A DNA stretch of 53,159 nucleotides, the filler included, from an uncultured virus (IMG/VR IMGVR_UViG_2049941000_000878) (Duplodnaviria; Heunggongvirae; Uroviricota; Caudoviricetes). It is 6 parts of one record of this genome, joined end to end, with 100 filler letters (N's around TTAATTAATTAA, not from the genome) between each part and the next. Parts side by side here need not be neighbours in the genome. Positions count along the whole stretch, not along the records: positions 1 to 17,018 come from IMGVR_UViG_2049941000_000878; 5 more parts are not named here. One strand, 5' to 3'. The translations under genes and the position numbers were made by a program. This document shows positions 5,212 to 53,159 of the stretch, one piece after another. The notes under the pieces were generated by a model. The model made no database searches and was not told the DNA's origin. It saw only the letters and a program-made list of their open reading frames with translations. The first letter of the stretch is position 1, and each line of letters opens with the position of its first letter.

Positions 5212-5908
5212 CTGGTGGAGCGACAAGTGGGAGAAGGGCGGACGTGACGCGAAGATGTACCCCGCTTTCATGCCGGACATCGAATGGGAGCGTCTCGGTG
5301 ACGAGGAGCGCGACCGCCACGCCTCCAGCATCCTCTATGTGAAGAACACCCGAAAGCAGGTGTACCCCATGCCGCTGTACGCGCAGGCCGTCAAGGCGTG
5401 CGAGACCGAGCGCTGCATCGACGAATACCACCTCAACAGCATCAACAACGAGTTCGCCGCCAGCGTGTTCATCCAGCTGTGTAACGGCGTCCCTCCGACT
5501 CCGGAACTGAAGGAGGAAGTGGAGCGCGACTTCCAGGAGAAATTCACCGGCAAGGAAAACGCCGGGCGCGTGGTGCTTTCCTTCAGTCCTGACCGGCAGC
5601 ACAGCGCCATCATACAGGAGCTGCACACCGAGGACTTCGGCGCGCGCTACGAGGCCCTGGCGAAGCGCAGCCGCCAGCAGATCTTCACGTCCTTCAGGGC
5701 GAATCCCAACCTGTTCGGCATCCCGACGGACAACCTCGGCTTCAGCAGTGAGGAATACGCCGAGGCGTTCGAGCTGTTCAACCGCACGCAGATCCAGCCG
5801 GTGCAGGGGCGCATCGCGGACGCCTTCGACCGCATCTGCGGCGTCCAGGGCGTCCTGACCATCCAGCCGTTCAACATTGCGGGAGACCGCGCGCAAACCG
5901 TGGAATGA
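5212..5908 (+). CDS. Portal protein, C-terminal part (duplicate tail at 5939-6122)
   Basis: YPMPLY, HLNSINNEF, KFTGKENAG, QIFTSFR..P.LFGI and FNRTQIQP.Q motifs. Confidence 0.8.
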
Positions 5909-6123
5909 TATGGCGACAATGTACCTTCNNNNNNNNNNTACCGACAACCTCGGCTTCAGCAGTGAGGAATACGCCGAGGCGTTCGACCTTTTCAACCGCA
6001 CCCAAATCCAGCCGGTGCAGGCGCGCATCGCGGACGCTTTCGACCGCATCTGCGGCGTCCAGGGCGTCCTTTCCATCCAGCCGTTCAACATCGCGGGAGA
6101 CCGCGCGCAAACCGTGGAATGAT

Positions 6124-6763: not shown

Positions 6764-7950
6764 CACTGCTGGAGGTCATACGATCNNNNNNNNNNNNNNN
6801 NNNNNNNNNNNNNNNNNNNNNNNNNNNNNNNNNNNNNNNNNNNNNNNNNNNNNNNNNNNNNNNNNNNNNNNNNNNNNNNNNNNNNNNNNNNNNNNNNNNN
6901 NNNNNNNNNNNNNNNNNNNNNNNNNNNNNNNNNNNNNNNNNNNNNNNNNNNNNNNNNNNNNNNNNNNNNNNNNNNNNNNNNNNNNNNNNNNNNNNNNNNN
7001 NNNNNNNNNNNNNNNNNNNNNNNNNNNNNNNNNNNNNNNNNNNNNNNNNNNNNNNNNNNNNNNNNNNNNNNNNNNNNNNNNNNNNNNNNNNNNNNNNNNN
7101 NNNNNNNNNNNNNNNNNNNNNNNNNNNNNNNNNNNNNNNNNNNNNNNNNNNNNNNNNNNNNNNNNNNNNNNNNNNNNNNNNNNNNNNNNNNNNNNNNNNN
7201 NNNNNNNNNNNNNNNNNNNNNNNNNNNNNNNNNNNNNNNNNNNNNNNNNNNNNNNNNNNNNNNNNNNNNNNNNNNNNNNNNNNNNNNNNNNNNNNNNNNC
7301 CCGCCGAGAGCATCCGCGAAATGGCGCAGAAGTACCTCACCGAGGGCCGCGCCGACAACGTGGACGAGATGCACGACGGCGACGACGTCGAAGATGTCCA
7401 CCTCGTCCNNNNNNNNNNCGTGTTCCGACTGAACAGCTATGCGGACGCCCGTTACGGCGTGTTCGCGTGGACGCAGGGGCGGCACCGTTCCGACGCTACG
7501 GCCCCGGACTGGGTCCGCTATTCCTTCACGCTGTTCTATGTCGACCGCCTGCGGAACGACATCGCCAACCAGGTCGAGGTTCAGTCCGTCGGCATGGACG
7601 TCTTGCAGAACGTCCTGCGCATCCTGCGGGACGCCGGGATCGAGCCGGAGTCCTACGAGTTCCAGACGTTCAACCAGCGCTTCACGGACGAGTGTGCCGG
7701 TGTGTATTGCTCGGCTGTGCTGCTTGTCGAAGCCGGGACCGACTGCGCCGAGGATGAGAACGGCAGGCCTTTCGTTATGGANNNNNNNNNNCGACAGCGC
7801 CTGCTATCAGTTCCAGACGTGGTTGCTGGCGCACCGCGACCTATTCCCGGAGCTTGACGCCTGCGCCTGCTCACGCATCAAGGCGAACCTCACCGAGGCC
7901 GCGACCTGCGGCATCTGGCTGGGCGGCTGCCGTGGAAAGGAGGTAAGGAG

Positions 7951-8363
7951 ATGACACTGCTGGAGGTCATACGGTCCATTGAGATAGCCGCACGGCGACA
8001 GCCGGCGGTCCGGATGGTCGTGCAGAACGACATCTTCCGGCTCAACACCATCGCGGACGCCCGCTACGGCGTGTTCGCGTGGACCCAGGGACGGCACCGC
8101 GCCACGGTGACGGATGACTATATCCGCTATTCCTTCGTCCTGTACTACGTCGATAGGCTCCGCAACGATCAGGCGAACCAGATCGAGGTGCAGAGCGTCG
8201 GCATCTCCACGCTGACGAACATCCTGCGCACGCTGGAAGGCTGGGGACTCACGCCGGAAACGTATGAGTTCCAAACCTTCAACCAGCGTTTCACGGACGA
8301 GTGCGCCGGCGTGTACTGCTCGGTCGTCCTCATCGCTCCGGAGGACTACATCTGCCCGGAGAA
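7951..8363 (+). CDS. Tail terminator/completion-like protein (variants at 7419-7781 + and 21498-21947 -)
   Basis: Follows the adaptor with ATGA overlap; YVDRL and FNQRF.DECAGVY motifs; functional call is positional. Confidence 0.55.
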
Positions 8364-8790: not shown

Positions 8791-9136
8791 NNNNNNNNNN
8801 NNNNNNNNNNNNNNNNNNNNNNNNNNNNNNNNNNNNNNNNNNNNNNNNNNNNNNNNNNNNNNNNNNNNNACACGAACAACGGCGCGGCCATCTCCGGCGA
8901 CCCCGGATCTGCCTCGGAGTTCGCGTTCTCCATCACCTTCACGAACATCCCGGAGAATACCAGCATATCGAGCCTGGTGTCGCAGNNNNNNNNNNTGAAC
9001 GTGACGCTCCCGGAGGACGTCACGCCGGGCGAGTACGAGTACCGCGCCAGCGCAGGCGGCGAGACCATATCCTGCGGCCTCGCCATCGTGGGCAACCCCA
9101 CGGCGCGCGTAACATCCTATGACAATCATCAGCAAT

Positions 9137-9399
9137 ATGAGCAATACAAATCCAATCACTGACCCGGTGAAGATGTCCATGCCGGTCGTTTTCCGCGCGG
9201 TCGACAAATACGTCGAGAGCAACATCGTCCCAGCGACCGAGACCAAGGCGCGCGGCGACAGCGGACGCATCCTCTGGGGACCGGGCAACAACTATCCGGC
9301 CTACTTGCTGGGCCTCTACAAGGACGTGGCGACGCTCGGCTCCATCGTCAACGGATGCGTCGACTATGTGGCCGGAAATGACGTGCAGCTGGCGAGCGA
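9137..9399 (+). CDS. Portal protein N-terminus
   Basis: WG..NNYPAYL..LY....TL.SIVNG..DYVAG motif. Confidence 0.75.
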
Positions 9400-9409
9400 N
9401 NNNNNNNNN

Positions 9410-11096
9410 CGCCTACTCCTGGGTGGGGCCGCTCGGCACTACGCAGATCTCGCTGGCGAACTACGCCACGAAGGCCGAACTCAGTCAGTTAGACCAAGAA
9501 GTTGGTTACTTGTCGGGGCATCTTGACTATGAATCATCAAGTGCTTCTGGTTGGAAAAATTATGGAAAGACACATATTAAAGCCGGCGATAAAATAACAG
9601 CCACTATTTCATTTAGCGCGTTTACCGGGGACAAGAAATACTTCGCTTTTGGTAGTTCGGCAACAAATGATTCGCTTACCTATGTCGCTTTAAACGCCGG
9701 AGAGACAACGGCCCAAATTACATACACGGCATCGGCTGATACTGATGTATACATCAACACATATGGCAACCTTTCCAATATTATTATATCCGTCAATATT
9801 TGGGGGAAGACTATCGAGGGACTTAATTCGAGTCTCAATGCGATTTCCACGAAGTTAAATGAGCTATATGGTGATTTATGGGGTGCATCTGGGCAGTCTG
9901 TTTCCCTCGGCACACATAGGAATGGCGTCATAAATCTCTCGGTTACTACAGGGTGGGAAAATCGTTCACTTGTTGGCCATTATATGATTCCCGTCATTGG
10001 CGGGTGTGGCTATAAAGTGATAACAAATGCATCTGGATACAAGTATGTGTTCTTAAAGGAAGAGCCGACCTATTCAAACGGAGGGATTCGCCCGGAAACA
10101 TATCCCGTCCTCGCAAGTGAACAATATGATGTTGTCTCTCTTGCGGTGGGTGCAACGGGAATCAACGCGCCTTACGACGCGAAATATTTATATTTGCAAG
10201 TAACGGAAGGGCTGTCTGACCCAGCCTTGTCTTTTGACAAGCCGATAGTCGCGCAGGTTTACGGATTGATTCCGAAGGGGGGTATACAATATTCTGGCGA
10301 GCAAATAAAACTAAAGCGTAATGCTTTTACAAATACAATGTATGGCGTTATTCTTAATGCATCACATCAAGGCGGCGCAGTATATGGAGATACGTTGTTT
10401 CTCTGTAAGTCCGATGGGACCGGTATTGTTTATGACCTCGCCGATAAAACGCTTCTCGGCACATTCAACCTCGGCGTAGCATTACACTGCAACGCTGTTT
10501 TCTTCGGAGAAAAATACTCATCCGGCGACGATTTCCCCGTACTCTATGTAAACTCCTATCTTGACAACGTTCAAAAAGGGACGATTTACGGATTCCGTAT
10601 TACGGAAAGTGGTGGCGTTTATACTTGCACACTTGTGCAGACTATCAATGTTGGGTTTGTTACAAGTAGCATCTGGACAGATGGAGCCGGCGATACGAGG
10701 ACTTATGGGAATTTTGTCCTTGATAAAGATTTGGGGGTGCTTTATGCTTACACATTGCTCGATACTACTAATGTGACGCGCTTTTTTGCTTTCCCTATGC
10801 CAGAACCGACAGCCGGAAATGTAACATTCGCTGAATCCGATATTTTATCACGATTCGATGTACCGTACCTTTCGATAATACAAGATTCGTGTTTTGCTGG
10901 TGGGCGCATTTTTATTGAGTCCGGAGACGGGACTACTTTGGATGGGTTGATAAGTGTTGTCGACCCAGTTATGCAAGCCATCGTTTCTCAAATAAATTTG
11001 AACAAAATAGGAATTACTTTTGAGCCAGAGTGCATTGATGTTTATAAGGATTCCATTTTATATGGTTCTTCTACTTTCTACGAGGCAAGGTTTTAA
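9410..11096 (+). CDS. Tail fibre / receptor-binding protein: end of the conserved N-part plus a low-GC variable module with a C-terminal beta-propeller
   Basis: Open frame; abrupt GC drop after ELSQLDQEV; propeller-like blades HQGGAVYG, HCNAVFFG, IIQDSCF and EPECIDVY. Confidence 0.75.
9478..9491 (+). repeat. Left 14-bp inverted repeat of the tail-fibre module (AACTCAGTCAGTTA)
   Basis: 13/14 identical to the reverse complement of 11127-11140; sits at the GC transition. Confidence 0.7.
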
Positions 11097-11126
11097 CTTG
11101 CCGTATAAATTAGTCATTTTAACCAA

Positions 11127-11140
11127 TAACTGACCGAGTT
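11127..11140 (-). repeat. Right 14-bp inverted repeat of the tail-fibre module (TAACTGACCGAGTT)
   Basis: Reverse complement is AACTCGGTCAGTTA; GC-rich phage sequence resumes immediately after it. Confidence 0.7.
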
Positions 11141-11210
11141 ACCGTCCCGCCTCCGGAAGTCTGCCGGAAGGACGACCGGAGGCCCCGGACGGAACCAATA
11201 ACAAAACGAC

Positions 11211-11435
11211 ATGGACAAGAGAACATTCTGCAAGCGTGTGGCGATATGGGTGGCGGTGATAGCCGCGGCCCTCATCGCAGTCATCGGCCTGTGCTTCGGT
11301 CGCGTCATTGAAGGCTCACTCTTTGCCGAGGTGGCGAAGTGGGTGGTCATGGGCGTGGTGGTCATCGGCATACTGGAAGGCTTCGTGTATTTCCTCGCGC
11401 CGCTGTGGTGGCACTTCAAGCAAAAGGGCGAATGA
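11211..11435 (+). CDS. Small two-TM membrane protein (lysis region)
   Basis: Two hydrophobic helices; A-rich start context. Confidence 0.65.
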   Translation: MDKRTFCKRVAIWVAVIAAALIAVIGLCFGRVIEGSLFAEVAKWVVMGVVVIGILEGFVYFLAPLWWHFKQKGE

Positions 11436-11653
11436 TCCGGCGCGACCATCTCCTGCACGCCGAGAGCTGCGCGCTCATCGCCGTGGCGGCCTCGACCGTC
11501 CTACCCTGGTGGGCGGCTGGCCTGCTGGCGCTGGGTGCCGGCATCGGGAAGGAGATCCGCGACAAGCTGCGGGGCGGCGTCCCTTCGTGGACTGACCTCG
11601 CGTGGGACTGCGCAGGTGTTCTGCTGGGTGTGACATTGATTCTAATACGATAG
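11432..11653 (+). CDS. Small membrane protein, YfiM/VanZ-like
   Basis: DH.LH...C, GIGKEIRD and SWTDLAWD..G motifs. Confidence 0.6.
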   Translation: MIRRDHLLHAESCALIAVAASTVLPWWAAGLLALGAGIGKEIRDKLRGGVPSWTDLAWDCAGVLLGVTLILIR

Positions 11654-14546: not shown

Positions 14547-15069
14547 ACAAGTGACTTCTCCGGAAATCCGATAGTGGCCCTTGCAACGCCAGCAACGCCG
14601 GACGGAACGCTTATCGCTACGCTCGCCAACGGAGACACCATCGTCATCGACCTCAATCACAACCATCCGCAATATCCGAAGTATGTGATGCTCCAGAGCG
14701 AAAGCGATATGCTTGCAACCCCTGACAGCACAACCCTATATATGTGGCCGGAGGAGTAGCTTATGAAATATGGCAACACAACGGTAGGAGGAATGTCATT
14801 CGGCTCTGTCAAGATTGGCGGTGCGCGAATGGGGAACGTCCTTGTCTATCGGCAGGGGACGCGCCCGCCCCTNNNNNNNNNNACCGCGCTGGCCGCATAT
14901 ACGACCACTGCGAACCTGACCACGCTGCTCGCCGCGAAGCAGGACACCATCTCGGACCTCGCATCTATCCGCAGCGGCGCGAATGCTGGCGCTACGGCCT
15001 ACCAGAAGCCGCCAACAGGCATCCCCGCGTCCGACCTTGCAGAAGGCGTCATTCCGACCGTGCCGACAG
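14547..15069 (+). CDS. Fragments of tail-fibre-associated structural proteins (14547-14759, 14763-14872, 14883-15069)
   Basis: PDSTTLY.., MKYGNTTVG.. and KQDTISDL..IRSGA..GATAYQKP..GIP.SDL motifs. Confidence 0.5.
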
Positions 15070-15449
15070 NNNNNNNNNNNNNNNNNNNNNNNNNNNNNNN
15101 NNNNNNNNNNNNNNNNNNNNNNNNNNNNNNNNNNNNNNNNNNNNNNNNNNNNNNNNNNNNNNNNNNNNNNNNNNNNNNNNNNNNNNNNNNNNNNNNNNNN
15201 NNNNNNNNNNNNNNNNNNNNNNNNNNNNNNNNNNNNNNNNNNNNNNNNNNNNNNNNNNNNNNNNNNNNNNNNNNNNNNNNNNNNNNNNNNNNNNNNNNNN
15301 NNNNNNNNNNNNNNNNNNNNNNNNNNNNNNNNNNNNNNNNNNNNNNNNNNNNNNNNNNNNNNNNNNNNNNNNNNNNNNNNNNNNNNNNNNNNNNNNNNNN
15401 NNNNNNNNNNNNNNNNNNNNNNNNNNNNNNNNNNNNNNNNNNNNNNNNN

Positions 15450-15988
15450 TCACATCTTCTACCCCGAAGTCAAGTATCGAACAGATCCTGGACATTCGCG
15501 AGTTTATTGACTGCTATCTTATGATGGAAGTATGTAACGTATGGGATTCGTGGGCGAGGAATACGCTGTATGGTAGTTGGGACGGTCAGCATTTCGCCCC
15601 GATGGTGTACGACATGAACAACTCCTTCAATGGGTTTGGCGGAAAGAATACCGGCCCTTATACCGCATATTATCCTCCGACCAGCGACACCTACAACCAA
15701 AAAGCGCGTTCGATGTCGTGGTTCGTCGCTCTTGAAGCCATCCTCGCCAACGACATAAGGGACAGGTACAAGGAGCTGCAATCGCTCGGCGTGTTTACGG
15801 TAGAAAACATTGTAGGGCTGTTCGACGAATGGGCGGAATGGGTCGGATTCAACGCCTACGCCAGGCACGCGAGCAGATGGCCGGATTGCCCCAGCCTTAT
15901 CGGCACCAACCGTGACATAGATAAAATTTCAGTTCTCCGTGATTGGGTGTCACAGAGAATAGCGTTCCTTAACAACAAATATCTTTAA
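15450..15988 (+). CDS. CotH-kinase-like C-terminal domain (alternative tail module)
   Basis: FIDCYL......WDSWARN....W......PMVYDMNNSF...WV.QRI.FL pattern; lower GC. Confidence 0.65.
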
Positions 15989-16946: not shown

Positions 16947-17118
16947 NNNNNNNNNNCAGATCGGGGGCGAGAGGTGGCTGCACATCGCCCTGAAGTCCAA
17001 CGACGGAAGGCAGCGCCGNNNNNNNNNNNNNNNNNNNNNNNNNNNNNNNNNNNNNNNNNNNNTTAATTAATTAANNNNNNNNNNNNNNNNNNNNNNNNNN
17101 NNNNNNNNNNNNNNNNNN

Positions 17119-21148: not shown

Positions 21149-21485
21149 CGACGAGGTAGATCTTCCCCAGCGTGGAGGCGGAAGCCGTCGGAAGGGTGGC
21201 CACGTCGACGTAGTCCATGCCGTTGATGGCGGCGAGAAGCTGGTCGACCTCGCTCTTGGTGTAGTAGTCCGCCAGCGACTGCACGGCGGTGTTCGCCTTC
21301 GCCAGCGCAGCCTGCACGTCCGCGTCCATGTCGGTGGACGGGATGCCGCTTGCCGGCTTGACGTATTTCTGCGCGACGACGGTGGTCAGTGCCTCCAGGG
21401 CGGCGGTGAGCTGCGCCACCGCGGTGAACCTCTCGTCCATCTCTTGTCCGGTAAATACGGACTGATAGGTTAGTTCGTTTGCCAT
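21149..21485 (-). CDS. Tail fibre conserved N-terminus
   Basis: YQS.FTG.EMD, YYTKSEVD and LPTASASTLGKIYLV motifs; follows the tail terminator gene. Confidence 0.65.
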
Positions 21486-22158
21486 TGTTCTCAATTATTA
21501 AAATTTTCGGATAATCACATCGGAGGCGACCTGCTCCCAGCCGTCGTCGCCGCGGAGGCCGCCGTCCGCGATCTCGGCGCAGTCACTTCCGGCCTCGGCC
21601 AGCAGGACCACGGAACAATAGACGCCGGCGCACTCGTCGGCGAAGCGCTGGTTGAAGGTCTGGAACTCGTAGGACTCCGGCTCGATCCCGGCGTCCCGGA
21701 GGATGCGCAGGACGTTCTGCAAGACGTCCATCCCCACGCTCTGCACTTCGACTTGGTTGGCGATGTCGTTGCGCAGGCGGTCGACATAGAACAGCGTAAA
21801 TGAATAGCGGACCCAGTCCGGGGCCGTAGCGTCGGAACGGTGCCGCCCCTGGGTCCACGCGAACACGCCGTAGCGTGCGTCCGCGTAGGAGTTGAGGCGG
21901 AACACGTCGTTCTCCACTATCATCGCCACGGCAGGCTGCACCGCCGCNNNNNNNNNNTGAAAAAGAAAATGGAATCACTACGCAACCGTTTCGACGCGAT
22001 GAAGGTCGGCGAGGTCATGGCCGTCAGCTTTGACGAATATGCCTACCGCACCATCCGTTCCTACGCCTCCGAGCGCGGCCTGGTCCTGGGCCGTGTCTAT
22101 TCTACGCAGTTAAGCCGCCAGACCCGCTGCATCTTCGTCACCCGCAAATCGTAACGCC

Positions 22159-25597: not shown

Positions 25598-25979
25598 CTA
25601 ACGTTTGCTGAACTGGAAGCGTCTACGTGCACCGGGCTGTCCGGGCTTCTTCCTTTCGACCTCGCGGGCGTCGCGGGTGAGGAATCCGGCGGCCTTGAGC
25701 GTAGAACGGTAAGCTTCCTTGTCAACCTCGCAGAGGGCGCGGGCGATACCCAGCCTGATGGCCTCGGCCTGACCCTTGATGCCACCGCCGACGACGGTGA
25801 CCTTGAGGTCGAACTGACCCTCGGTCTTGGTGACCGAGAAAGGCTGGTTCACGATGTAACGGAGGGCATCCTCGGCGAAGTAGCTGTCAAGGCTACGGCC
25901 GTTGATGAGGATCTCACCGGTACCGGCTACGAGATAAACGCGAGCTACAGCTGCCTTGCGTCTTCCAAGGGCGTGAATC
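25598..25979 (-). CDS. rpsI: 30S ribosomal protein S9 (start codon in the fragment at 25136)
   Basis: GRRK.AVARV, GGG..GQA.AIR and VERKKPG...ARR.FQFSKR motifs. Confidence 0.97.
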
Positions 25980-25989
25980 NNNNNNNNNN

Positions 25990-26493
25990 TTTCTGTACAT
26001 CAACTACGAAGACGGCCGAAGGGAGACGGCTCATATCACGGATAGAACCGAGGTTCTTCTCCAGCTTAGCCCTCTGGCGGTCGACCTGGAGACGCTCTCT
26101 CTTGGCGAGTTTCTCGAAAGTGCCATCCTCCTTCATCTTGTCGATGGTGCTCATCTTCTTGATGGCCTTGCGGATGGTAGGGAAATTGGTGAGCATGCCG
26201 CCGGCCCAGCGCTCGGTGATGGAAGGCATGTTGACTTCTGCAGCCTTCTCCGAGACGATGTCCTTGGCCTGTTTCTTGGTGGCTACGAAGAGGATCTTGC
26301 GGCCGGACTTGGCCAGGTCCTTCATCACTTCGGCAGCCTCGTCAATCTTGACGACGGTCTTGTGCAGGTCGATGATATGGATGCCGTTCTTCTGGTCGAA
26401 GATATACGGAGCCATTTTAGGGTTCCACTTCCTGGCGAGATGGCCGAAGTGAACGCCTGCATCAAGCAATTCCTGGAAATTTGTTCTAGACAT
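25990..26493 (-). CDS. rpsB: 30S ribosomal protein S2 (partial)
   Basis: LLDAGVHFGH..RKWNPKM and RW.GGMLTN motifs. Confidence 0.97.
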
Positions 26494-26855
26494 TGTTNNN
26501 NNNNNNNAGCGCTCCTCCTCCTGTTCTCCCGCTTCGAGTGGGAAGTCCGTGACCTTCAATCCCTCGACTGATATGGACACGAACTGCAAGCCGATCTGGC
26601 AGTGGGTCGTCCGCTTCGAGTGGCACCGGTCCATGCGCTTCGACAATCCCTGGTGGTATTGGTTCAACGATGTGCGCTGCTTCAATACCGGCGCCGAGGC
26701 GGACGAGTTCGCCCGCGCCGACCATCCGGAGTTCCCCGGCNNNNNNNNNNGGCCGCCAACGGCTGCACCCGCGCAGCGTGCGAGACCGAGGCGCAGAAGC
26801 ATGGCCGCACGATCCCGACCGACGTCTGGAACAAAGTTTTAGAAGCAATATAAAT

Positions 26856-33306: not shown

Positions 33307-33424
33307 ACCGAGCAACGGAGAAAANNNNNNNNNNNNNNNNNNNNNNNNNNNNNNNNNNNNNNNNNNNNTTAATTAATTAANNNNNNNNNNNNNNNNNNNN
33401 NNNNNNNNNNNNNNNNNNNNNNNN

Positions 33425-34168
33425 CCGCCCTGCTCTACCTTCTCAATGGCAGGAGACCGCGAACACGCCTGGGGCAAGGAAAAGATATTTGCGGAAGGTC
33501 AGGCCCTCCAAACACTCGATGACCTGGTTTTCATCTACTGCGAGACCATAAAGAAGCTGCGTCCAAAATCTTTCATACTTGAGAACGTAAAGGGCCTGGC
33601 ACTCGGTAATGCCAAATCATACCTCCGTCGAATCTTCGACACAATGAAGAAGGCCGGATATAATTGTCAAGTATTCATTCTCAACGCCGCCTCTATGGGC
33701 GTTCCTCAAATTCGTGAAAGGTGCTTCGTTATCGGAAGCCGTGCAGACTTACATTTCCCTCCGATCAAGCTGTCTTTCAGTGAATCTCCGATATACTTCG
33801 GAGAAATCATAGATCGCTCCGATATGCGTCAGACGCTCTCCGGTTCATTGCTTGAAGCATTTGACGCGTGGAAGCGAGGTGACCGTTCCCTCGCGCATAC
33901 AAACGAACGAACGAAAGGAAAAACCTCCGGTTTTACCACAGCGTGGGTATCGGAGGATAAAATATGTAATACACTTACAACTGGCCAGCACCTTTTAACC
34001 TCCATCCCTCGCGACTTGAACGAGATCGAACTGCTCAAGGTCGCCACTTTCCCACAGGACTACGACTACCCCAACATGAACCGTCTGCGATTCCTCACCG
34101 GAATGTCAGTCCCTCCCGTAATGATAGCACAAATAGCTCACCAAATTAACCTCCAATGGTTCAAATGA
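33425..34168 (+). CDS. DNA cytosine-5 methyltransferase (probable N-terminus at 47731-47758)
   Basis: PPC..FS.AG, ENV.G, Q.RER.F and G.SVPP motifs. Confidence 0.9.
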   Translation, partial: PPCSTFSMAGDREHAWGKEKIFAEGQALQTLDDLVFIYCETIKKLRPKSFILENVKGLALGNAKSYLRRIFDTMKKAGYNCQVFILNAASMGVPQIRERCFVIGSRADLHFPPIKLSFSESPIYFGEIIDRSDMRQTLSGSLLEAFDAWKRGDRSLAHTNERTKGKTSGFTTAWVSEDKICNTLTTGQHLLTSIPRDLNEIELLKVATFPQDYDYPNMNRLRFLTGMSVPPVMIAQIAHQINLQWFK

Positions 34169-34465
34169 AACAATATCTCGTTGTCGCAACAATAAAGGAA
34201 CTGGAACTTCCATACGCAAAAGTTATCGCCGCGTCTCGNNNNNNNNNNTGCCTGTATGGTGATGGAGGACGGCGACAGGGATATGCCCGCGCCGGTGCCG
34301 GGTGCCTGGGTGACGGTGAAGGACACCGACTCGCCGGTGGCGTTCGTGAGGGTGACGGTGACGCTGCGGCGACCGGTGCCGGTGTTCGCGCTGCACGTTA
34401 TGATGAGCGTCGACTTGCCGGACGGTCCGGTGGTGCGGTCGAAGGACAGCCACGANNNNNNNNNN

Positions 34466-37381
34466 TCGGCTGCGATGGCGGCTGTGCCGACCCCCCCGCC
34501 GCCGAACTGCGTGGCGCGGATCTTCGCCGTGGTGGCTATGCCGGACGCGAGGACGCCGGCTGCGTTGGTCGCCGCGAGCGTCGCCTTCGCTATTGCGCTG
34601 GGGATGGTCTTGTCGTTCCACGTCGCCCATATCGCCGACGCCATGCCGGACAGGGTGTTCACCCACGTCTCGGCGATCTGGAACCGCTTGCTGTTCTCGA
34701 AGGCCCGCTTGTCGTCGTCCGCGGATGCGTCGTACAGGTCCGCGATGGCGCCGAGGATGTCACCCACGCCGGCGGNNNNNNNNNNGAAGAACTGCATGAC
34801 CGGCTCCAGCGCCTTGAGCGCCTTGTTCAGCGCCTGCGTGGCTTTCTCGTTGTCCTTCAGGCCGTCGGCTATCTTATTGATAAGCGGCGCCAGCAGGGTG
34901 ACGGTGCCGATGATGGGATTCGTGGCCATGAGCTTGAAGGACTTGTCCAGCTGGTCTCCGGCCTTCTTCACCGCGCCCATGCTCGGCGGCAGGTCCTTCA
35001 CGACGTCATGCAGGCCGTCCAGCGCGGACTTGTAGTTTCCGACGTTGCGCTGGTAGTTCCCTTGCAGGGCGTCCAGTTCCTTGAGTTTGTCGTTGACGTC
35101 GTTGACGCTTGATGCCAGTTCCTTGAAGCGCTGCATCCCTTCCTCGGTGGACGTGTCCACGGTCCGGAGTTCTTCCTTGTACGCCGCCATGCGGTGGACG
35201 AGGGCGTTGTAGGATTCGCCGGTGCCGGTCGCCGCCTCGGTCAGTTGGTCCATGCTGGAGGTCGTCGCGTACATCGCGTCCTTCAGCGCGTTCTGGTTGA
35301 CCTTCAGTTCCGACAGGGTGTCCTGGTACTTGGTCGTTCCTATCTCAAGGTCCGAGAGCTGCTCCTTCAGGATCTTGATGTTGTTCTTGAGGTCGCCGAC
35401 GCTCTTGACGGCTTCCTCGGTGCCGACCTTCAGTATGGTGATGGTTTCGATTTCTGCTGCCATTCTATTGCGGGTTTAATAGTTGATTTCGCCTTCGGGG
35501 AGCTGCGCAATGGTGAACACCGCGAACTTTGCGAGGTCCGTGGTCCGGAAGGACACGCTGCGCAGCGCCGTGCGGTCCGTCTCATTNNNNNNNNNNCGCG
35601 CGCTCGTTCATGGCCTCGACCTCTATCTGTACCTCCAGGTCCGCGACCTGCTGCTCGTAGTCCAGGTACGCCGACAGGTCTCCGCGCTGCACGGCGGCCT
35701 GCTGGAACTCACGCAGGGCGGCGAGCTTCCGCTGGTTGCCTTCGACGGCGATGCGGTAGGATTCCTCGGCACGCTTGCGCTCGTCGTCCACGGTNNNNNN
35801 NNNNTATCTGGAAGCGCTTGCTGTTCTCGAAGGCCCGCTTGTCGTCGTCCGCGCTTGCGTCGTACAGGTCCGCGATGGCGCCGAGGATGTCCCCCACACC
35901 GGCGGCGTATGCCTGCATGATCTTCGCCTTCGCCTGCGCGGCCTTCTCCGCGTCTGCGATGTCCTGACGGCGGATGCGTGCGCGCTCGTTCATGGCCTCG
36001 ACCTCTATCTGCACCTCCAGGTCCGCGACCTGCTGCTCGTAGTCCAGGTACGCCGACAGGTCCCCGCGCTGCACGGCGGCCTGCTGGAACTCACGCAGGG
36101 CGGTGAGCTTCCGCTGGTTGCCTTCCACGGCGATGCGGTAGGATTCCTCGGCACGCTTGCGCTCGTCGTCCACGGTGGCGGCGTTGACGTCCTGCTGGTA
36201 TTTCGCGGCCTTGTCGATGGCTTCCAGCCGTTCCTTTTCGTGACGCAGCGCGGCCTTGAGCATATCCGCCTCGGCCTTGTCCAGCGCCGCTGCGGCCTTG
36301 TCCATGTCGGCGGCCATGTCGATGATGATCTCGTCGAAGCCGTCCTTCACCTCCTGGGCGATNNNNNNNNNNCCCTGCTGGTATTTCGCGGCCTTATCTA
36401 TGGCCTCCAGCCGTTCCTTTTCGTGACGCAGTGCGGCCTTGAGCATATCCGCCTCGGCCTTGTCCAGCGCCGCCGCGGCCTTGTCCATGTCGGCAGCCAT
36501 GTCGATGATGATCTCGTCGAAGCCGTCCTTCACCTCCTGGGCGATGGCCTTGCCGCCGTCCTTCGCCTTTTTCCTGCGTGACGACAGGCCGGAGACGAAC
36601 GCATCCGCCGCGACCTGCCCGGCCTCGAAGTTCTGCTTGAAGGCGAAGCCCTTGTCGATGGCTCCGGATATGCCTGCGAGCGCGTTCTTCGCGCTCTCGC
36701 CGGCCTGCTTCCAGTTGCCGCTGAAGATGTCCTTCAGGACGTTGACGAGGCCCTTNNNNNNNNNNCGCGTCCTGCGGCTTCTATGTCGCTCTGGAGGATA
36801 TACACGCGGGACGGTTCCGCCGCACGGTTGAGCCGGTCCACATCGGAGGCCGTCTGCGCCTGGAGGACCTGCGGCAGCGAGGTNNNNNNNNNNTGCGGAC
36901 GGCGAGAACTGCACCATGCCGGGATTGGCGACGAGGCCGTAGGTGGTGTTGCGGATGCGGCAGGACAGGCTGCGCTGGCTGCCGGTGTTCGCTGATACCT
37001 GCACCGTGACCTCNNNNNNNNNNGCCGGCTTCTATGGCGATGCGGAAGGGCGTGACGAGGAAGTTTATCACGGCGTTGCCGACACCGGTGACGCCGGACA
37101 CGATCTTGTTGAAGGTGCCGTCGGATTTGTTCGCCAGTTCTATGAGTTGGTCGACGCACCACGACAGGGCGTCGGCTATCTTGTCAAGGATGCCCTCNNN
37201 NNNNNNNACCGGCTTCTATGGCGATGCGGAAGGGCGTGACGAGGAAGTTAATCACGGCGTTGCCGACACCGGTGACGCCGGACACGATCTTGTTGAAGGT
37301 ACCGTCGGATTTCGCGGCGAGTTCGACGAGCTGGTCGACGCACCACGACAGGGCGTCGGCTATCTTGTCAAGGATGCCCTC
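34466..37381 (-). CDS. Tape measure protein, multiple variant fragments (start at 35463)
   Basis: Long helical Ala/Lys/Glu-rich frames; GNYQRNVGNY and NPIIG motifs; starts right after the BACON tail gene. Confidence 0.8.
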
Positions 37382-37625: not shown

Positions 37626-40600
37626 TTAGTTGTTGATTTCGCCTTCGGGGAGCTGCGCGATGGTGAACACCGCCGTCTTTGCGAGGTCCGTGGTCCGGAA
37701 GGACACGCTCCGCAGCGCCGTGCGGTCCGTCTCGTTCGCCGGATAGGTGTAGAGGACCGACGTGTTGCCGGTGCCGTAGGTCGGACTGACGGTAACGTTG
37801 CCGAGGATCTCGGCCACCTGCCACGACGTNNNNNNNNNNACACCGGAGGACGGCGTGACGGTGATGCCGCCGAGGATCTCGCCGACCTCCCACGCCGTGT
37901 TGCTGGTTATCTGGAGCAGGCCGTCTCCGGCGTTGTGGTCCACGTTGATCTCCGAGGGTGCGACGTACAGGGACGAGCCGGACGCCTGCGACACCGCCAC
38001 GCCGTCGTAGACGAACTGGTTGAGCGCGAAGTTCAGCGTCGTCTCATAGGCGCTGCCGGAGATGTTCTCGCCCTTCGTGCGGACCGTTACCGCCTCGCCG
38101 TTCTGGCTGCCGTTGCCGGACGCGGGTGTCACCTCCAGCCATGAGGGCGGATTGACGTACCAGGGGCCGGAAGCGAACACGACGAGCTGGGCGGAGCCGC
38201 CGCCGCTGGGGAACGACAGGCTGTCGCGGTCCACGGAGATGGTGCCGCCCGGCCCCTGCGCGATGGTGACGGTCGCGGTCTTGCCCGCGGCGGTGAACGT
38301 CACGGTGCCGTGGCGGATGTCCTGCGAGAGGTTCTCCGTGACGGTGATGGCGACGGTCTGGCCGTCTCCAGCCGGACCGGATGCCGCGACGCTTATCCAT
38401 GAGGCGTTCTTCGACGCGGTCCATTCCGCGCTGGTGTCAAGCGTGACGTTATAGCTCTGCGCGTCCTTCGTGAGCCGCACGGTGTCCGGGTCCACATCGC
38501 AGTAACCCTGCGGCGGTGCGCCCTGGACGAGGATCACCTGCTGCGTCAGGCCGGAGCCGTTGGTCGTGGCGAAGTTCAGCGTGACGGTGCGCTGCGTCGT
38601 GCCGGGGTTCGGTCCGAGCGACACACGCACGGAGCCGTCGCCGGAGCCGGTCGTGGGTGATATGGTGAGGTCGGAATAGGATGCCGGGGTCGTCACCTGC
38701 CACGATGTCGTACAGGACACGCTGAAATCCTGATAGCCGCCGGTGTTCGCCATGCGGACCGTGCCGAAGGGGACGACGTTCAGGATGTCCTCGGCGGAGG
38801 GCGAGAGCTGCACCATGCCGGGCGTGGCGACGAGGCCGTAGGTAGTGTTGCGGATGCGGCACGACAGGCTGCGCTGGCTGCCGGTGTTCGCCGATACCTG
38901 CACCGTGATCTCGTCCGGACCGGTGCCGCTTGTCTTGGACATATTCGATATGCCGGAGCTGATCTGGTCGATGGACCACGCGAGGCCGGACGGCGCGTTG
39001 ATGGTCAGGTAGACCTCCTGCGCGTCGGATGTAATGCGGTCCTTGCTGAAGTTCGCGTTCAGGTACTTGTCCGAGCCGGGACCGGCCTGGTAGACGTAGA
39101 AGGTGGACGTCTGCCCGGTGGCGGTCAGCGTGCCGACGATCGTGCCGACGCGAGGGCTGCCGGTGTTCTCGTCCGCGTTGAACCAGCGCGTCTTGTTGCC
39201 GGTGCCGGACCATGCCGTGCCGGTGGGATGCAGCCAGGGCGTATTGGTGGCGACGGTCCACGCGCCGTTGGAGCGCACGTCGAAGCCTTCGCCCTGCGCT
39301 GCGGCGGTTATCTCCACGCTGTTATACATGGAGTTCTCTCGCCTTGTCAGTTCGATGCGGTCGCCCCCGGAGGTGGCGGGGTTCTGGATGACGTAGAACA
39401 TCGCGCCCTGTGTGTAGCCGTCGCGCGTGGCAGTGATGATGCCCTGCCGTGACGTCGTGCCGGTGTAGTTCGGCACGGTGACGGCCAGCGTGCCGTTCCC
39501 TGCGCCGGAAAGCGGCGTGACGGTTATCCAGTTGGCGCTGTTGGTGATGGTCCAGCCGTCACCCTCCGGCACCACGACGTAGAGGGTGGTGGAGCCGCCG
39601 GTGGACTGGAAGGTGGCGTTGTCGTTGCCGTTGCCGTCCAGCAGGGTGATGTCTCCGGTGCCGCCCTCCCCTGCCAGCTGCGTGACCGCGAGCGTGGCCC
39701 AGATGGTGGTGTCGCCGGTGAGGTAGACCTTGATGGATGCGCTGCGCTCGTCGCCGGGGTTCGCGCCTGTGCGGAGCGATATGCCGGTGAGCGATGTCGA
39801 CACGGTCAGCCATGACGGAACGGTGGAGTAGTCCACGGCCCACGCGCCGGAAGCGGTGACGAGGGACGACCGTCCGCGGGANNNNNNNNNNCCCTGCGCG
39901 GAGCGATATGCCGGTGAGCGATGTCGACACGGTAAGCCATGACGGTACGGTGGAGTAATCCACGGCCCACGCGCCGGAAGCGGTGACGAGGGACGACCGT
40001 CCGCGGGACGCCTGTCCGGGGATGGCCGTGCCGGCAGCCTGTATGGTGATGGAGGACGGCGAGAGGGATATGCCCGCGCCGGTTCCGGGCGCCTGTGTCA
40101 CGGTGAAGGGCACCGATTCGCCGGTGGCGTTCGTGAGGGTGACGGTGACGTTACGGCGACCGGTGCCGGTGTTCGCGCTGCAAGTGATGATCAGCGTCGA
40201 CTTGCCGGACGGTCCGGTGGTGCGGTCGAAGGACAGCCACGACGGCGAGGCGGATGCGGTCAGCGACCATGCGCTGGAGCTGCGCACCTCGACGGCCTGC
40301 GAGTTCCCTCCGGGGAGGAAGGCGAACGAGGCGGAATCCGGCGTGATGTTGATGTAGTGTGCGGGGACGCTGCCGGGGCCGTTGGTATAGGCGGCCATGT
40401 CCTGCACCTTGACGAACTCGCACTCGGAGAGGTCCCACGTCGTGAGGCTGTGGTTGCGGATGGCGTTGAGCGTCCACAGGGCGTTGTCGTACCAATAGAA
40501 GCGCCGTAGCAGCGCCTGACCGACCGGAAGGCCCCGGAGGTCCACCCGCGCCTTCAGGACGCGTGTGTCAGCCGCGAAGCGGTCGGAGAGGTATGCCTTC

Positions 40601-43025: not shown

Positions 43026-43124
43026 NNNNNNNNNNNNNNNNNNNNNNNNNNNNNNNNNNNNNNNNNNNNTTAATTAATTAANNNNNNNNNNNNNNNNNNN
43101 NNNNNNNNNNNNNNNNNNNNNNNN

Positions 43125-43957
43125 NTCATAGGGAATGTTCTGGATCTCGTTAAGAAAAAGGCGGTCGCGTGCCGGTCCGTGTACCTTACTGGGTGCGTCT
43201 GCGCTGAAAAACTCAATTAGAGAGCCATTTGGAAGCGTATAGATACTTTCTGACTTATTCCATGCCCTTTCGTTATAATAGTCCCCAAGGGCATCAGGAA
43301 AGTCACGGATGGCACCTCGTTTGAGGTGGTTNNNNNNNNNNNNNNNNNNNNNNNNNNNNNNNNNGTACGCGATTTTGCGCCCGGTGTCTGCGAGGATGCG
43401 CACGATGGCGGTGGGGTCGTGTGTAAAGCCGAAGTCAATCCCCCACACTTCGCGGAGGCCATAAGGGTCTGGCAGGGAGTCAATAGTGTCGAATTCGTAG
43501 ATCAGGCCTTCCAGCGTTCCGAATTGTCCGAGGCCATAAACCTGCCACCAGTTGCGGTCGCCTTGGTTGGATTCTATCTCGCGTATCTGTTCCGGCGTGA
43601 GGTGCGTGTTGTCCCTGTATGTCGAGTGAATGGTCACGCAGTCGGGGCGCGTTTCGATTTGTTCGTTGCCCCAGAAGGTCGCAGTAGGATTGTAGTCCAT
43701 GAGGATCAGGCCTCGGGTACGGACGAAAAGCTGGCGCGCGNNNNNNNNNNNNNNNNNNNNNNNNNNNNNGTTTCTGAAACCACGGAGGTCAGCGTGGGGA
43801 CTTCGTCCTGGATGGCGAGTTCGTAAATGGCCTGGAGGTTGGCGAAGGTTTTGCCGGATCGTGTACCGCCACAAGACGAGACGAAGCGGTCCGTCTGGCA
43901 GATCGCTTGCATCGTCTTGTAGTATACCGGCGTATATATCATTTTTTCGTGCTCCAT
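43125..43957 (-). CDS. terL: Terminase large subunit, divergent variant (gapped)
   Basis: GGTRSGKT, LFLNE and IDFGF motifs. Confidence 0.85.
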
Positions 43958-52084: not shown

Positions 52085-52736
52085 NNNNNNNNNNNNNNNN
52101 NNNNNNNNNNNNNNNNNNNNNNNNNNNNTTAATTAATTAANNNNNNNNNNNNNNNNNNNNNNNNNNNNNNNNNNNNNNNNNNNNACGACCACCCTCTACG
52201 TCGTAGTGCCGGAGGGCGACGGCTGGACCATCACCAACAGCGCGGACTGGATAACCGTCACGCCGCTTTCCGGCGCAGGGAACGGTACCCTCGCCGTCAC
52301 CGTGCCGAACTACACCGGAACGACGTCACGGCAGGGCATCATCACCGCCACCCGCGACGGCTACACACAGGGCGCGATGTTCTACGTCATCCAGAACCCC
52401 GCNNNNNNNNNNNNNNNNNNNNNNNNNNNNNNNNNNNNNNNNNNNNTTAATTAATTAANNNNNNNNNNNNNNNNNNNNNNNNNNNNNNNNNNNNNNNNNN
52501 NNCAGAAATACCTCACCGAGGACCGCGCCGACCGCGTGGACCTCATGCACGACGGCAACGACGTGGAAGGCGTCCACCTCGTCCAGTGGTTCATCAAGGA
52601 CAGCGCGAAGGGCNNNNNNNNNNTTGCAAAGATACGGCAAAAAAATAGATATGCAAAACATCAGTGAATTCGAAAAAAACGTGTAAATTTGTACTTTGTT
52701 TTAAGAGTGAAATTTTAATTATCTCATAAATCAGTT

Positions 52737-53041
52737 ATGTACCAAGCATTCAAAAGACTTTTGACCGTTGTCGCGGTCATGCTGGTGGGAATTTCGGCAT
52801 TCGCCCAGGTTACCACCTCTTCCCTTAACGGCAAGGTTGCCGACAGAGATGGCGAGCCCGTCGTAGGCGCCGCCGTTATCGCTGTCCATACCCCTTCCGG
52901 TACGCAGTACTATGCTGTCGCCAATGCGGAAGGCCGTTTCGCCATCAACGGTATGCGCTCCGGCGGCCCTTACTCCGTAGAGGTCAGCTGTCTCGGATAC
53001 CAGACGGTCACTTACACCGACATCACCCTTCAGCTCGGTGA
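52737..53041 (+). CDS. Host TonB-dependent receptor N-terminus (carboxypeptidase-regulatory-like domain)
   Basis: Signal peptide, QVTTS.L.G.V, H.PSGT.Y and GMR.GGPY motifs; TAAATTTG promoter at 52684-52691. Confidence 0.85.
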
Positions 53042-53159
53042 NNNNNNNNNNNCACGGCCAACACCAAGTTCGCCACCGAGAAGACCGGTGCCGCCACCAA
53101 CATCAACAACAGCCAGATCGTCTCCCTCCCTACCGTCAGCCGCAACCTCACCGACGTGA

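What the first reader, a model, noticed from the sequence alone, without database searches (positions are those of the whole stretch)
9478..11140. Receptor-binding module of the tail fibre is a cassette bounded by 14-bp inverted repeats
Seen: AACTCAGTCAGTTA (9478-9491, inside the ORF, encoding ELSQL) and TAACTGACCGAGTT (11127-11140, 30 bp past the stop) are 13/14 inverted repeats. They coincide with both edges of the low-GC block. Inversion would keep the frame (ELGQLLVKMTNL...) but stop about 22 codons later. Known: Mu Gin, P1 Cin and shufflons switch fibre C-termini at in-gene crossover sites, but they carry an alternative C-terminus and an adjacent invertase, and neither is visible here. 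Inference: either an ON/OFF inversion or a cassette-exchange system in which whole host-range modules are swapped at defined sites, possibly by the phage tyrosine recombinase or a host enzyme.
Basis: partly seen in the sequence, partly recalled or inferred. Interest (0 to 1): 0.8.

Follow-up and report, generated by a model that had tools for sequence, protein, structure and literature searches.

The report
Conserved inverted joints flank swappable fibre modules
The receptor-binding end of this gut-phage tail fibre sits between two copies of one short motif in opposite orientation, and the same two motifs flank unrelated modules in related phages, so they mark the points where host-range modules are swapped.

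Summary
The 13/14 inverted repeat is real (9478-9491, 11127-11140) and sits at both edges of the low-GC block. On its own it is close to chance level. Comparison with other loci makes it significant.

- **Same arms, different modules.** In 7 loci from four fibre-anchor families, the same arms flank C-terminal modules that are mostly unrelated. The left arm is (G)AACTYARTCAGTTA, encoding E-L/V-S-Q-L. The right arm is TAACTGACYRAG, just after the stop.
- **Same module, different anchor.** An independent bovine-gut contig carries this window's module at 99.5% identity on a different anchor. Likeness starts exactly at 9478.
- **Foreign codons.** The left arm uses codons (AGT, TTA) that the phage backbone almost never uses.
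- **Three-frame stop.** The right arm holds stop codons in all three frames. In three loci it supplies the gene's actual stop.

No invertase, no alternative C-terminus, and no inverted or empty junction was found.

Verdict: the arms are conserved joints for module exchange. The enzyme is unknown. Short-homology recombination is slightly favoured, and site-specific exchange at inverted core sites remains a live option. An ON/OFF inversion switch is unlikely. The annotated ORF start at 9366 is an artefact of a scaffold join (N10 at 9400-9409).

The parts
9119..9399 (+). Portal-protein N-terminus. This is an unrelated scaffold piece and not part of the fibre.
   Evidence: It matches the portal starts of L001 and L002 at 66-68% identity. 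The reading frame and the gene both change across the N10 run.
9400..9409 (.). N10 scaffold join. It makes the 'ORF 9366-11096' start spurious.
9410..9477 (+). Last 22 codons of the conserved fibre anchor domain (...AYSWVGPLGTTQISLANYATKA). GC-rich.
   Evidence: 100% identical to P0002 residues 131-152. Conserved in 19 aligned fibres.
9477..9500 (+). Left joint, GAACTCAGTCAGTTAGACCAAGAA (E L S Q L D Q E). The left arm is 9478-9491. Its reverse complement carries stops in all three frames.
   Evidence: Identical or nearly identical DNA in L007-L011, L001 and L002. The last invariant residue, L157, is the TTA of the arm. AGT and TTA are almost absent from the backbone.
9501..11096 (+). Exchangeable C-terminal module with its stop codon; GC of the stretch between the arms is 0.43. 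It comprises a beta-sandwich, a long helix, a second beta domain and a distal beta-propeller-like domain.
   Evidence: The distal domain has 707 representative relatives. The same module is present at 99.5% identity in run X5.
11097..11126 (+). AT-rich 3' tail of the module, ending in TTTTAACCAA.
   Evidence: The TTWAACC part is conserved in L007, L009, L011, L001 and L003.
11127..11140 (+). Right arm, TAACTGACCGAGTT. It is a member of the TAA-c-TGA-c-TRA three-frame stop motif. In this window the third stop has decayed to CGA.
11141..11192 (+). GC-rich hairpin, about -39 kcal/mol with its flanks. It has no T-run and matches no Rfam family.
   Evidence: Conserved in L007, L009 and L011, and absent in L003.
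11211..11435 (+). Small membrane protein, holin-like by position. It is the first gene of the lysis block.
   Evidence: Relatives are L003-L006. In L007 the downstream order is a membrane protein, an M15 peptidase, DUF6808 and then the integrase.
21150..21485 (-). The 5' part of the same fibre gene (P0002 residues 1-112), displaced by the scaffold.
   Evidence: tblastn, 100% identity

Best explanation
**What the arms are.** They are the conserved joints of an exchangeable receptor-binding module. The fibre has a conserved anchor of about 160 residues. The anchor ends in a short helical linker, E-L/V-S-Q-L-x-Q-x-V. Everything after that linker is replaceable.

**The two copies of the motif.**
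- In the CTCAGTCAGTTA orientation the roughly 12-15-nt motif is open in all three frames. It encodes LSQL at the entry to the module.
- In the TAACTGACTGAG orientation it is closed in all three frames. It sits just after the module and in front of the lysis genes.

**How exchange works.** Modules move between phages by two crossovers, one at or beside each joint. On the left, the joint of about 23 bp is the only sequence shared by different anchors. On the right, the shared sequence is the stop motif, plus a hairpin in this lineage.

**Shown.** The joints are conserved around unrelated modules. One module sits on two different anchors, with its left breakpoint at the left arm. On the right, divergence rises at or shortly before the right arm. 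The left arm's codons are foreign to the backbone. The right motif is used as a stop.

**Inferred.** I infer that the crossovers are made by general or short-homology recombination of the phage or the host, as described for other conserved linkers in phage genomes. I also infer that the right motif's main everyday job is to end translation in any frame ahead of the holin-like gene. Homology-driven exchange does not explain why the two joints are inverted copies of one motif.
For: 1. **One switch point.** 19 of the 32 hits share the anchor. These were the hits whose match was the short N-terminal stretch, plus P0002. They become unalignable right after ELSQLDQ(E/K), and the last invariant residue is L157. 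Their C-termini carry different Pfam families.
2. **Arms in close loci.** The left joint is present in 6 of 6 close loci. Both joints are present in 4 of 4 loci that reach both ends: W, L007, L009 and L011, which come from four different assemblies.
3. **Arms in distant fibres.** Fibres with other anchors also have both arms: L001/L033, L022 and L027. In each, the best inverted match of the 12-nt right core lies at E-x-S-Q-L.
4. **Modules are mostly unrelated.** Of 21 module pairs, 19 show no BLASTP likeness below E 0.01. The exceptions are W-L022, which share a distal domain, and L007-L009, at E 0.008.
5. **The same module on another anchor.** A 7714-bp contig in run X5, from another study, carries this module. 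It differs at 9 of 1635 positions in the module and at 16 of 577 in the right flank (Fisher p = 7e-5). Upstream of 9478 it is unlike the window. X7 shows the same module from 9480. X7 also shows this window's left flank joined to a different module after 9500.
6. **Foreign codons.** AGT is 1 of 79 Ser codons and TTA 0 of 121 Leu codons in the L007 backbone. The figures for L001 are 2 of 111 and 0 of 135.
7. **The motif works as a stop.** The upstream ORF ends on its first stop in L024, its second in L025 and its third in L030.
8. **One copy per orientation.** The motif occurs at most once in each orientation in each of 17 sources examined.
Against: - Homology-driven exchange gives no reason for the two joints to be inverted copies of one near-palindromic motif.
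- Twenty-three base pairs is short for general recombination.
- In a second anchor family (L027 type), the conserved anchor ends at NLVKSGGV. Only 4 of the 18 proteins whose junction I could locate go on with the SQL linker. Modules therefore also switch elsewhere.
- Two fibre-like loci have the right motif but no left arm (L024 and L030).
- DNA was available for only about a dozen loci. All breakpoint evidence rests on assembled contigs, not on reads.
Confidence: 0.45

Rival explanations
1. **Site-specific cassette exchange.** Each arm is a core-type site, xAAC-TCAGTCA-GTTA, with 4-5-bp inverted arms around an asymmetric 7-bp centre. The two sites lie in inverted orientation. A tyrosine recombinase, either the phage integrase or a host enzyme, recombines left with left and right with right between two phages. 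This swaps the module without ever excising it. The logic is that of engineered recombinase-mediated cassette exchange with inverted or mismatched sites.
For: - The arms are inverted copies of one motif that is 12/15 self-complementary (reading).
- That motif is conserved as an island between variable sequence on both sides.
- The invariant 8-mer (GTCAGTTA / TAACTGAC) faces the module at both ends.
- A Bacteroidota-type tyrosine integrase gene lies 1.2-1.7 kb beyond the right arm in L007 and L022.
- The X5 breakpoints fall at 9478 and between 10926 and 11135.
- The centres of the left and right sites differ by one or two bases in 6 of 7 loci. That would block inversion but still allow left-left and right-right exchange.
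Against: - No recombinase is dedicated to the locus. The integrase looks like an ordinary prophage integrase with an arm-binding domain.
- The conserved arms are very short for a recombinase site.
- The right motif occurs without a left partner in L020, L024, L025 and L030. It also has a translational use.
- No circle, inverted junction or empty junction was seen. These are weak negatives.
- No such system is known to me in phages. The paper searches turned up none.
Confidence: 0.27
2. **No recombination role.** The right motif is kept only as a three-frame stop or coupling signal in front of the lysis genes. The left motif is kept only as the start of a trimer-forming helix. Modules switch there because it is a domain boundary, and selection keeps only in-frame, foldable joins.
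For: - The right motif supplies real stops in three frames. It occurs upstream of start codons in non-fibre contexts (L020 and L025).
- The linker is predicted as a helix, H151-160, at low confidence.
- In the L027-type family the switch point is a different conserved peptide.
Against: - It does not explain why S-Q-L is written AGT CAG TTA in 7 of the 10 loci whose DNA I could read (W, L007-L010, L022, L027). L002 has CAA for Gln. L001 and L011 encode N-Q-L as AAT CAG TTA. The backbones almost never use AGT or TTA.
- It does not explain why that wording is the exact complement of the stop motif.
- In all 7 loci that have both arms, the best inverted match of the right core lies at the linker. 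Shuffles reached it 0/200 times in three loci, 2/200 in two, and 15/200 and 24/200 in the other two.
Confidence: 0.15
3. **ON/OFF, or a relic of a Mu-like inversion switch.** Recombination between the two arms flips the module. The result is a truncated fibre. In an ancestor, the flip would have exposed a second C-terminus.
For: - The arms are in inverted orientation at the constant/variable junction, as in the Mu G and P1 C segments (recalled).
- Inversion keeps the frame across the arm.
Against: - The inverted reading stops after 22 codons here. By my reading of the sequences, it stops after 2 to about 10 codons in L007, L009 and L001.
- No second module lies on the other strand.
- No serine recombinase was found in 98 ORFs scanned.
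- No strand-changing joint appeared in 4 runs.
- None of the 8 short anchor proteins found ends in an inverted junction.
- The site centres mismatch within 6 of 7 loci.
Confidence: 0.06
4. **Chance or an assembly artefact.**
For: - An inverted pair of this quality arises in 22% of shuffles of the piece.
- The window is a jumbled scaffold.
Against: - Both arms lie on a single 2319-bp contig of depth 22.
- The same arms recur in contigs from several independent collections and assemblies.
Confidence: 0.02

Closest known systems
Mu G segment / P1 C segment (Gin, Cin) and related invertible tail-fibre segments
   Same: An inverted repeat lies inside the fibre gene, exactly at the border between the constant and variable parts. 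The variable part decides host range.
   Different: Those systems hold two alternative C-termini in opposite orientation and an adjacent serine invertase (recalled; the passages I read in PMC9881135 confirm that tail-fibre genes are common inversion targets). Here there is one module, no second reading frame and no serine recombinase. Variation is seen between genomes, not within one.
Promoter-early stem-loop (PeSL) cassettes of T4-type phages (PMC2839356; abstract and outline read)
   Same: Short conserved non-coding cassettes, which include a stem-loop, flank non-homologous genes. Recombination between them shuffles modules. The right joint here is likewise a short signal plus a stem-loop, shared by different neighbours on both sides.
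   Different: PeSLs are intergenic promoter-terminator units and occur as direct copies. Here the left joint lies inside a coding sequence. The two joints are inverted copies of one motif, and the motif is a three-frame stop rather than a promoter.
C-terminal displacement in polymorphic toxins (CdiA, Rhs; PMC3482391, only the start of the abstract seen in a listing)
   Same: A short conserved peptide marks where a constant N-terminal part gives way to many unrelated C-terminal parts. Recombination at that marker swaps them.
   Different: Those loci keep silent 'orphan' cassettes nearby (recalled). Here only one pair of motifs occurs per locus, and no orphan module was seen.
Integron gene cassettes
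   Same: Modules of unrelated content lie between short conserved sites, with a hairpin at the 3' end. The left joint even contains GTTAGAC, which fits the recalled core consensus GTTRRRY.
   Different: The hairpin is conserved in sequence rather than specific to each cassette. It is absent in L003, L022 and L027. No IntI-type integrase or attI site was identified. The module is an in-frame part of a gene.
Modular tailspikes and tail fibres with a conserved N-terminal anchor (P22-like and Klebsiella depolymerase phages; PMC10408124, seen in a listing only)
   Same: A conserved anchor is combined with interchangeable receptor-binding or enzymatic C-termini that are exchanged horizontally.
   Different: To my knowledge, no defined nucleotide motif in inverted copies has been reported at both ends of those modules.

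Membership tests
Serine-invertase fibre switch (Gin/Cin/Pin/Hin type) | A serine recombinase gene next to the invertible segment | tested here: not met
   No resolvase/invertase family matched at E <= 0.001-0.01 among 14 + 49 window ORFs and 35 ORFs of L001, L007, L022, L024 and L027. The window is a fragmented scaffold, so a gene hidden in masked stretches cannot be excluded.
Serine-invertase fibre switch (Gin/Cin/Pin/Hin type) | Two alternative C-terminal coding parts in opposite orientation between the repeats | tested here: not met
   Reading in from the right arm stops after 22 codons. The reverse-strand ORFs inside the module (9680-9931, 10748-10981) do not touch the arm.
Serine-invertase fibre switch (Gin/Cin/Pin/Hin type) | Both orientations are present in a population | tested here: inconclusive
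   No strand-changing joint was seen in 4 runs, but all were kept as contigs, which drop rare forms. None of the 8 short anchor proteins carries an inverted junction.
Shufflon (Rci type) | Several (more than two) repeats bounding several segments, plus an adjacent Rci-type tyrosine recombinase | tested here: not met
   There is at most one motif per orientation per locus in 17 sources. The nearby tyrosine recombinase has phage-integrase arm-binding and SAM-like domains.
Integron cassette | A cassette-specific attC hairpin, an attI site and an IntI integrase | tested here: not met
   The hairpin is nearly identical behind four different modules and is absent in L003, L022 and L027. No IntI was identified. 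The core consensus is recalled, not tested.
Linker-mediated modular shuffling (PeSL-like, boundary sequences) | The same short conserved sequence lies between non-homologous neighbours on both sides | tested here: met
   Left joint: it follows different anchors (W type, X5, L001, L022, L027) and precedes different modules. Right joint: it follows different modules and precedes different downstream genes (W/L009/L011 against L007/L001).
Linker-mediated modular shuffling (PeSL-like, boundary sequences) | Recombinant breakpoints fall in the linkers | tested here: met
   X5 and X7: likeness to the window starts at 9478-9480. X7 record 13: likeness ends at 9500. X5: divergence rises fivefold from the right arm onwards. 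This rests on contigs only.
Linker-mediated modular shuffling (PeSL-like, boundary sequences) | Circular or other recombination intermediates | not testable with these tools
   No raw reads were on offer for the runs that hold the stretch.
Diversity-generating retroelement | A reverse transcriptase and a template repeat, with changes confined to adenine positions | tested here: not met
   Whole unrelated modules replace each other. No reverse-transcriptase family appeared in the ORFs scanned.

The most novel reading that the evidence does not exclude
This would be a natural counterpart of recombinase-mediated cassette exchange. Two inverted core sites, often with slightly mismatched centres (xAAC-TCAGTCA-GTTA), flank the host-range module of Bacteroidota-type gut prophages. 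A tyrosine recombinase swaps whole receptor-binding modules between phages at these sites. The inverted arrangement protects the module from excision. The motif's double nature, open in all frames one way and closed in all frames the other, keeps every swap translatable at entry and terminated at exit.
Probability: 0.22. Interest if true: 0.9.

Novelty: new variant of a known kind. Interest (0 to 1): 0.65.

Why it matters
Swapping receptor-binding modules is the main way phages change host. The crossover points are usually explained only by protein domain borders.

Here a defined nucleotide motif marks both ends of the module across several fibre families. Its features point to a function at the DNA level:
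- Its codons are foreign to the backbone.
- It occurs in inverted copies.
- It has a built-in stop in all three frames.

If the joints prove sufficient for exchange, three things follow:
- They explain how rumen and gut prophages reshuffle many enzymatic and binding modules onto one anchor.
- They give a simple sequence signature for finding exchangeable host-range modules in metagenomes.
- They offer a natural docking design for engineering phages of gut commensals.

Whether the exchange is homology-driven or site-specific can be tested directly.

Tried and rejected
- **Own genome.** None is held.
- **Cultured-phage collection.** No match to the module as protein or to the 3.8-kb region as DNA.
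- **IMG/VR.** No relative of the module, of the 11339-11650 product or of the close anchor family.
- **Species genomes.** No relative of the anchor. An exact scan for the left joint gave one hit in a planctomycete MAG, which I took as chance and did not examine further. The same scan gave none in IMG/VR.
- **Pfam and PHROGs.** Nothing for the module or the anchor piece.
- **Rfam.** Nothing at 11050-11260.
- **Hairpin.** It is not a consensus terminator. Covariation is weak: 2 of 18 pairs.
- **Right-core scan in IMG/VR.** 21 loci were found. I set aside 14 as chance or other contexts (L013-L019, L021, L023, L026, L028, L029, L031, L032) after reading their surroundings.
- **Direct repeats as spacers.** I considered direct repeats at the inner edges as the spacers of an insertion site: TTAGACCAA on the left and TTAACCAA on the right in this window. 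I dropped the idea because the other loci do not share it (reading).
- **Transposon-like terminal repeats.** I considered these and dropped them because the right motif also occurs alone.
- **Structure.** The model is of moderate quality (mean pLDDT 73.6; the anchor-linker region is below 50). It says only that the distal domain is beta-propeller-like.
Full report
**1. The observation**

The left one is read GAA CTC AGT CAG TTA (ELSQL) in the fibre frame. The right one starts 30 nt after the TAA stop at 11094-11096. GC falls from 0.69 to 0.43 at the left arm and rises to 0.64 after the right arm. An in-silico inversion keeps the frame and stops after 22 codons.

As a bare inverted repeat it is not significant. 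A second 13/14 pair lies in the same 2.6 kb. In addition, 22% of 60 shuffles of the 2308-nt piece contain at least one such pair.

**2. The window is a jumbled scaffold**

It holds 87 runs of N, 66 of them exactly 10 long. Across these runs the coding frame and even the gene change. A portal N-terminus (9119-9399) abuts the N10 run at 9400-9409. After that run comes the middle of a fibre gene.

The ATG at 9366 is therefore not the fibre start. The real protein is the 691-aa P0002, 100% identical over the window's part. Its first 112 residues are encoded at 21485-21150 on the other strand. Both arms lie on a single 2319-bp contig of depth 22 in run X1, so the finding itself is not affected.

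**3. What the gene is**

In relatives the gene order is portal, DUF6712, a small protein, the fibre, a small membrane protein, an M15 peptidase, DUF6808 and a tyrosine integrase with Bacteroidota-type arm-binding and SAM-like domains. The window also holds BACON-domain proteins, an S24 repressor, integrase pieces and bacterial genes. The runs that hold the stretch are bovine gut metagenomes. This points to a temperate phage of a Bacteroidota-type host, which is an inference.

The model of P0002 has mean pLDDT 73.6. It shows N-terminal helices, a helix at the linker (151-160, low confidence), two beta domains separated by a long helix, and a confident distal beta-propeller-like domain. That distal domain has 707 representative relatives at the ends of proteins of many sizes.

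**4. Homologous fibres switch at one place**

Of the 32 hits, I aligned 19. These were P0002 plus the 18 hits whose match was the short N-terminal stretch. I left out 13 hits that were module homologues or had other anchors.

All 19 share about 160 residues ending ...YATKAELSQLDQ(E/K) and are unalignable afterwards. The last invariant residue, L157, is the TTA of the left arm. Their C-termini carry different Pfam families, including metallophosphoesterase, GDSL-like, GDPD and SASA.

**5. The arms flank unrelated modules**

A scan of metagenome contigs gave five loci.
- The left joint GAACTYARTCAGTTAGACCA is present in 6 of 6 close loci (W, L007-L011).
- In all 4 loci that reach both ends (W, L007, L009, L011), the module's stop is followed by AACCnnTAACTGACYRAGTT and then the same GC-rich hairpin.

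More distant fibres also have both arms:
- L001: GAACTCAATCAGTTA ... TAACTGACTGAG.
- L022: GAAGTCAGTCAGTTA, encoding EVSQL.
- L027: GAGGTTAGTCAGTTA, encoding EVSQL.

In each of the 7 loci, the best inverted match of the 12-nt right core within up to 4.5 kb upstream is at this linker. Shuffles reached that match 0/200 times in three loci, 2/200 in two, and 15/200 and 24/200 in the other two.

Of 21 module pairs, only W-L022 (a shared distal domain, E 3e-22) and L007-L009 (E 0.008) show any likeness. The 8-mer occurs at most once per orientation in each of 17 sources.

**6. One module on two anchors**

Laying contigs of four runs gave the following:
- A 7714-bp contig from another study (X5) carries this module through to 11717. 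Upstream of 9478 it is unlike the window. By my count its last 30 letters match the window at 16 of 30 positions, and they read as a diverged anchor.
- X7 shows the same module from 9480.
- Another X7 contig has the window's left flank up to 9500 and then a different module.
- X20 differs before 9461.

X5 differs from the window at 9 of 1635 module positions and at 16 of 577 positions right of the arm (p = 7e-5). The first differences after 10926 lie in the outer half of the right arm. So this module moved recently between backbones. The left breakpoint is at the arm. On the right, divergence rises at or shortly before the arm.

**7. Signs of a function at the DNA level**

The backbones almost never use AGT (1/79 and 2/111 Ser codons) or TTA (0/121 and 0/135 Leu codons). 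Yet S-Q-L is written AGT CAG TTA in 7 of the 10 loci whose DNA I could read. L002 has CAA for Gln. L001 and L011 encode N-Q-L as AAT CAG TTA.

The right motif reads TAA-c-TGA-c-TGA/TAA, which gives a stop in every frame. The upstream ORF ends on its first stop in L024, its second in L025 and its third in L030. In this window the third stop has decayed to CGA.

The left arm is the complement of that motif. It is open in all three forward frames and closed in all three reverse frames. Each arm is also close to a palindrome (TAACT-N5-AGTTA, 12 of 15 positions). Only three central bases define its orientation. The invariant 8-mer faces the module at both ends.

**8. Results against a simple story**

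- In the L027-type anchor family I aligned the top 22 of 63 hits. The conserved part ends at NLVKSGGV. Only 4 of the 18 proteins whose junction my pattern located go on with Y-x-E-V/I-S-Q-L. Four others could not be placed. The SQL linker is therefore a short joint of its own and is not universal.
- L024 and L030 have the right motif behind long ORFs, but no left arm. L020 and L025 have it in other contexts.
- The hairpin is absent in L003, L022 and L027. One X1 contig has the hairpin behind other sequence.
- No serine recombinase was found in 98 ORFs scanned.
- No strand-changing joint was seen. None of the 8 short anchor proteins has an inverted or empty junction. All read-level evidence is from contigs, which cannot show rare forms.

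**9. Mechanism**

What is shown: the joints bound the exchangeable module, and exchange has happened at them.

For the enzymology I give these odds:
- 0.45 to recombination driven by the short shared joints. This has a precedent in the promoter-stem-loop cassettes of T4-type phages (PMC2839356, abstract read).
- 0.27 to site-specific exchange at inverted core sites.

Only the site-specific reading explains why the joints are inverted copies of one near-palindromic motif. It fits the mismatched centres seen within 6 of 7 loci, which would block inversion yet allow left-left and right-right exchange. It lacks a dedicated enzyme and any observed intermediate.

The remaining odds are:
- 0.15 for a purely translational or structural reading.
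- 0.06 for an inversion switch.
- 0.02 for chance.

**10. Novelty**

Modular receptor-binding proteins and fibre inversion systems are well known (passages of PMC9881135 read). I found no description of a defined motif in inverted copies at both ends of fibre modules, nor of a natural three-frame stop used this way. The full-text searches turned up none. The 12 papers that hold the 11-mer are on unrelated topics by their titles, and I opened none of them. I file this as a new variant of a known kind.

Noticed in passing
window, whole (e.g. 7396-7752, 7948-8361, 21222-21947 minus strand): The window is a scaffold of short pieces joined by N10 runs. The pieces are out of order and partly redundant. 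The same small structural gene appears three times. Portal parts appear at 5213-5908, 5940-6122 and 9155-9397. Any ORF that crosses an N10 run should be distrusted.
   Followed up: partly
window 11141-11192, with 11121-11130 and 11193-11202: A GC-rich hairpin is nearly identical behind four different fibre modules. In this window it is flanked by a 10-bp direct repeat, AACCAATAAC. It is absent in the close relative L003. In run X1 its first 30 letters are shared by three contigs, one of which has other sequence in front. It may be a small repeated or mobile element rather than a terminator.
   Followed up: partly
L016 4501-4515 and L029 4501-4515: In an AT-rich viral contig, the same 15-mer is part of a perfect small hairpin, CCCTAAC-TGACTAA-GTTAGGG, between an A-run and a T-run. 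It looks like a two-way terminator. The motif's near-palindrome can therefore also serve as a stem-loop.
   Followed up: no
window 17019-17118, 33325-33424, 43026-43125, 52085-52184, 52403-52502: Five pairs of 44-base N runs are each separated by exactly 12 readable bases. This is a regular masking pattern of unknown meaning.
   Followed up: no
window 25948-26838 (-), 52737-53159 (+), 34141-35475 (-), 37629-40097 (-): The scaffold mixes host-like genes with phage DNA and points to a Bacteroidota-type host. The genes include ribosomal protein S2, a SusC-like carboxypeptidase-regulatory domain, and large BACON-domain proteins.
   Followed up: no
window 14744-15988 (+): This is a second fibre-like piece. 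Its 5' part resembles the L001 fibre (14826-15068). Its end carries a CotH-like domain. It probably comes from another strain's fibre of the long-anchor type.
   Followed up: no
L007, L009, L011 modules and window 9501-11126: All four modules of the close family have lower GC (0.43-0.51) than their backbones (0.58-0.69). The pool of modules seems to circulate among phages of lower GC than these backbones.
   Followed up: partly
window 10128, 10134, 10139: At three positions the window differs from all four laid runs, including the likely source run. This changes EQYNVISL to EQYDVVSL. It is a local variant or a consensus error in the scaffold.
   Followed up: no
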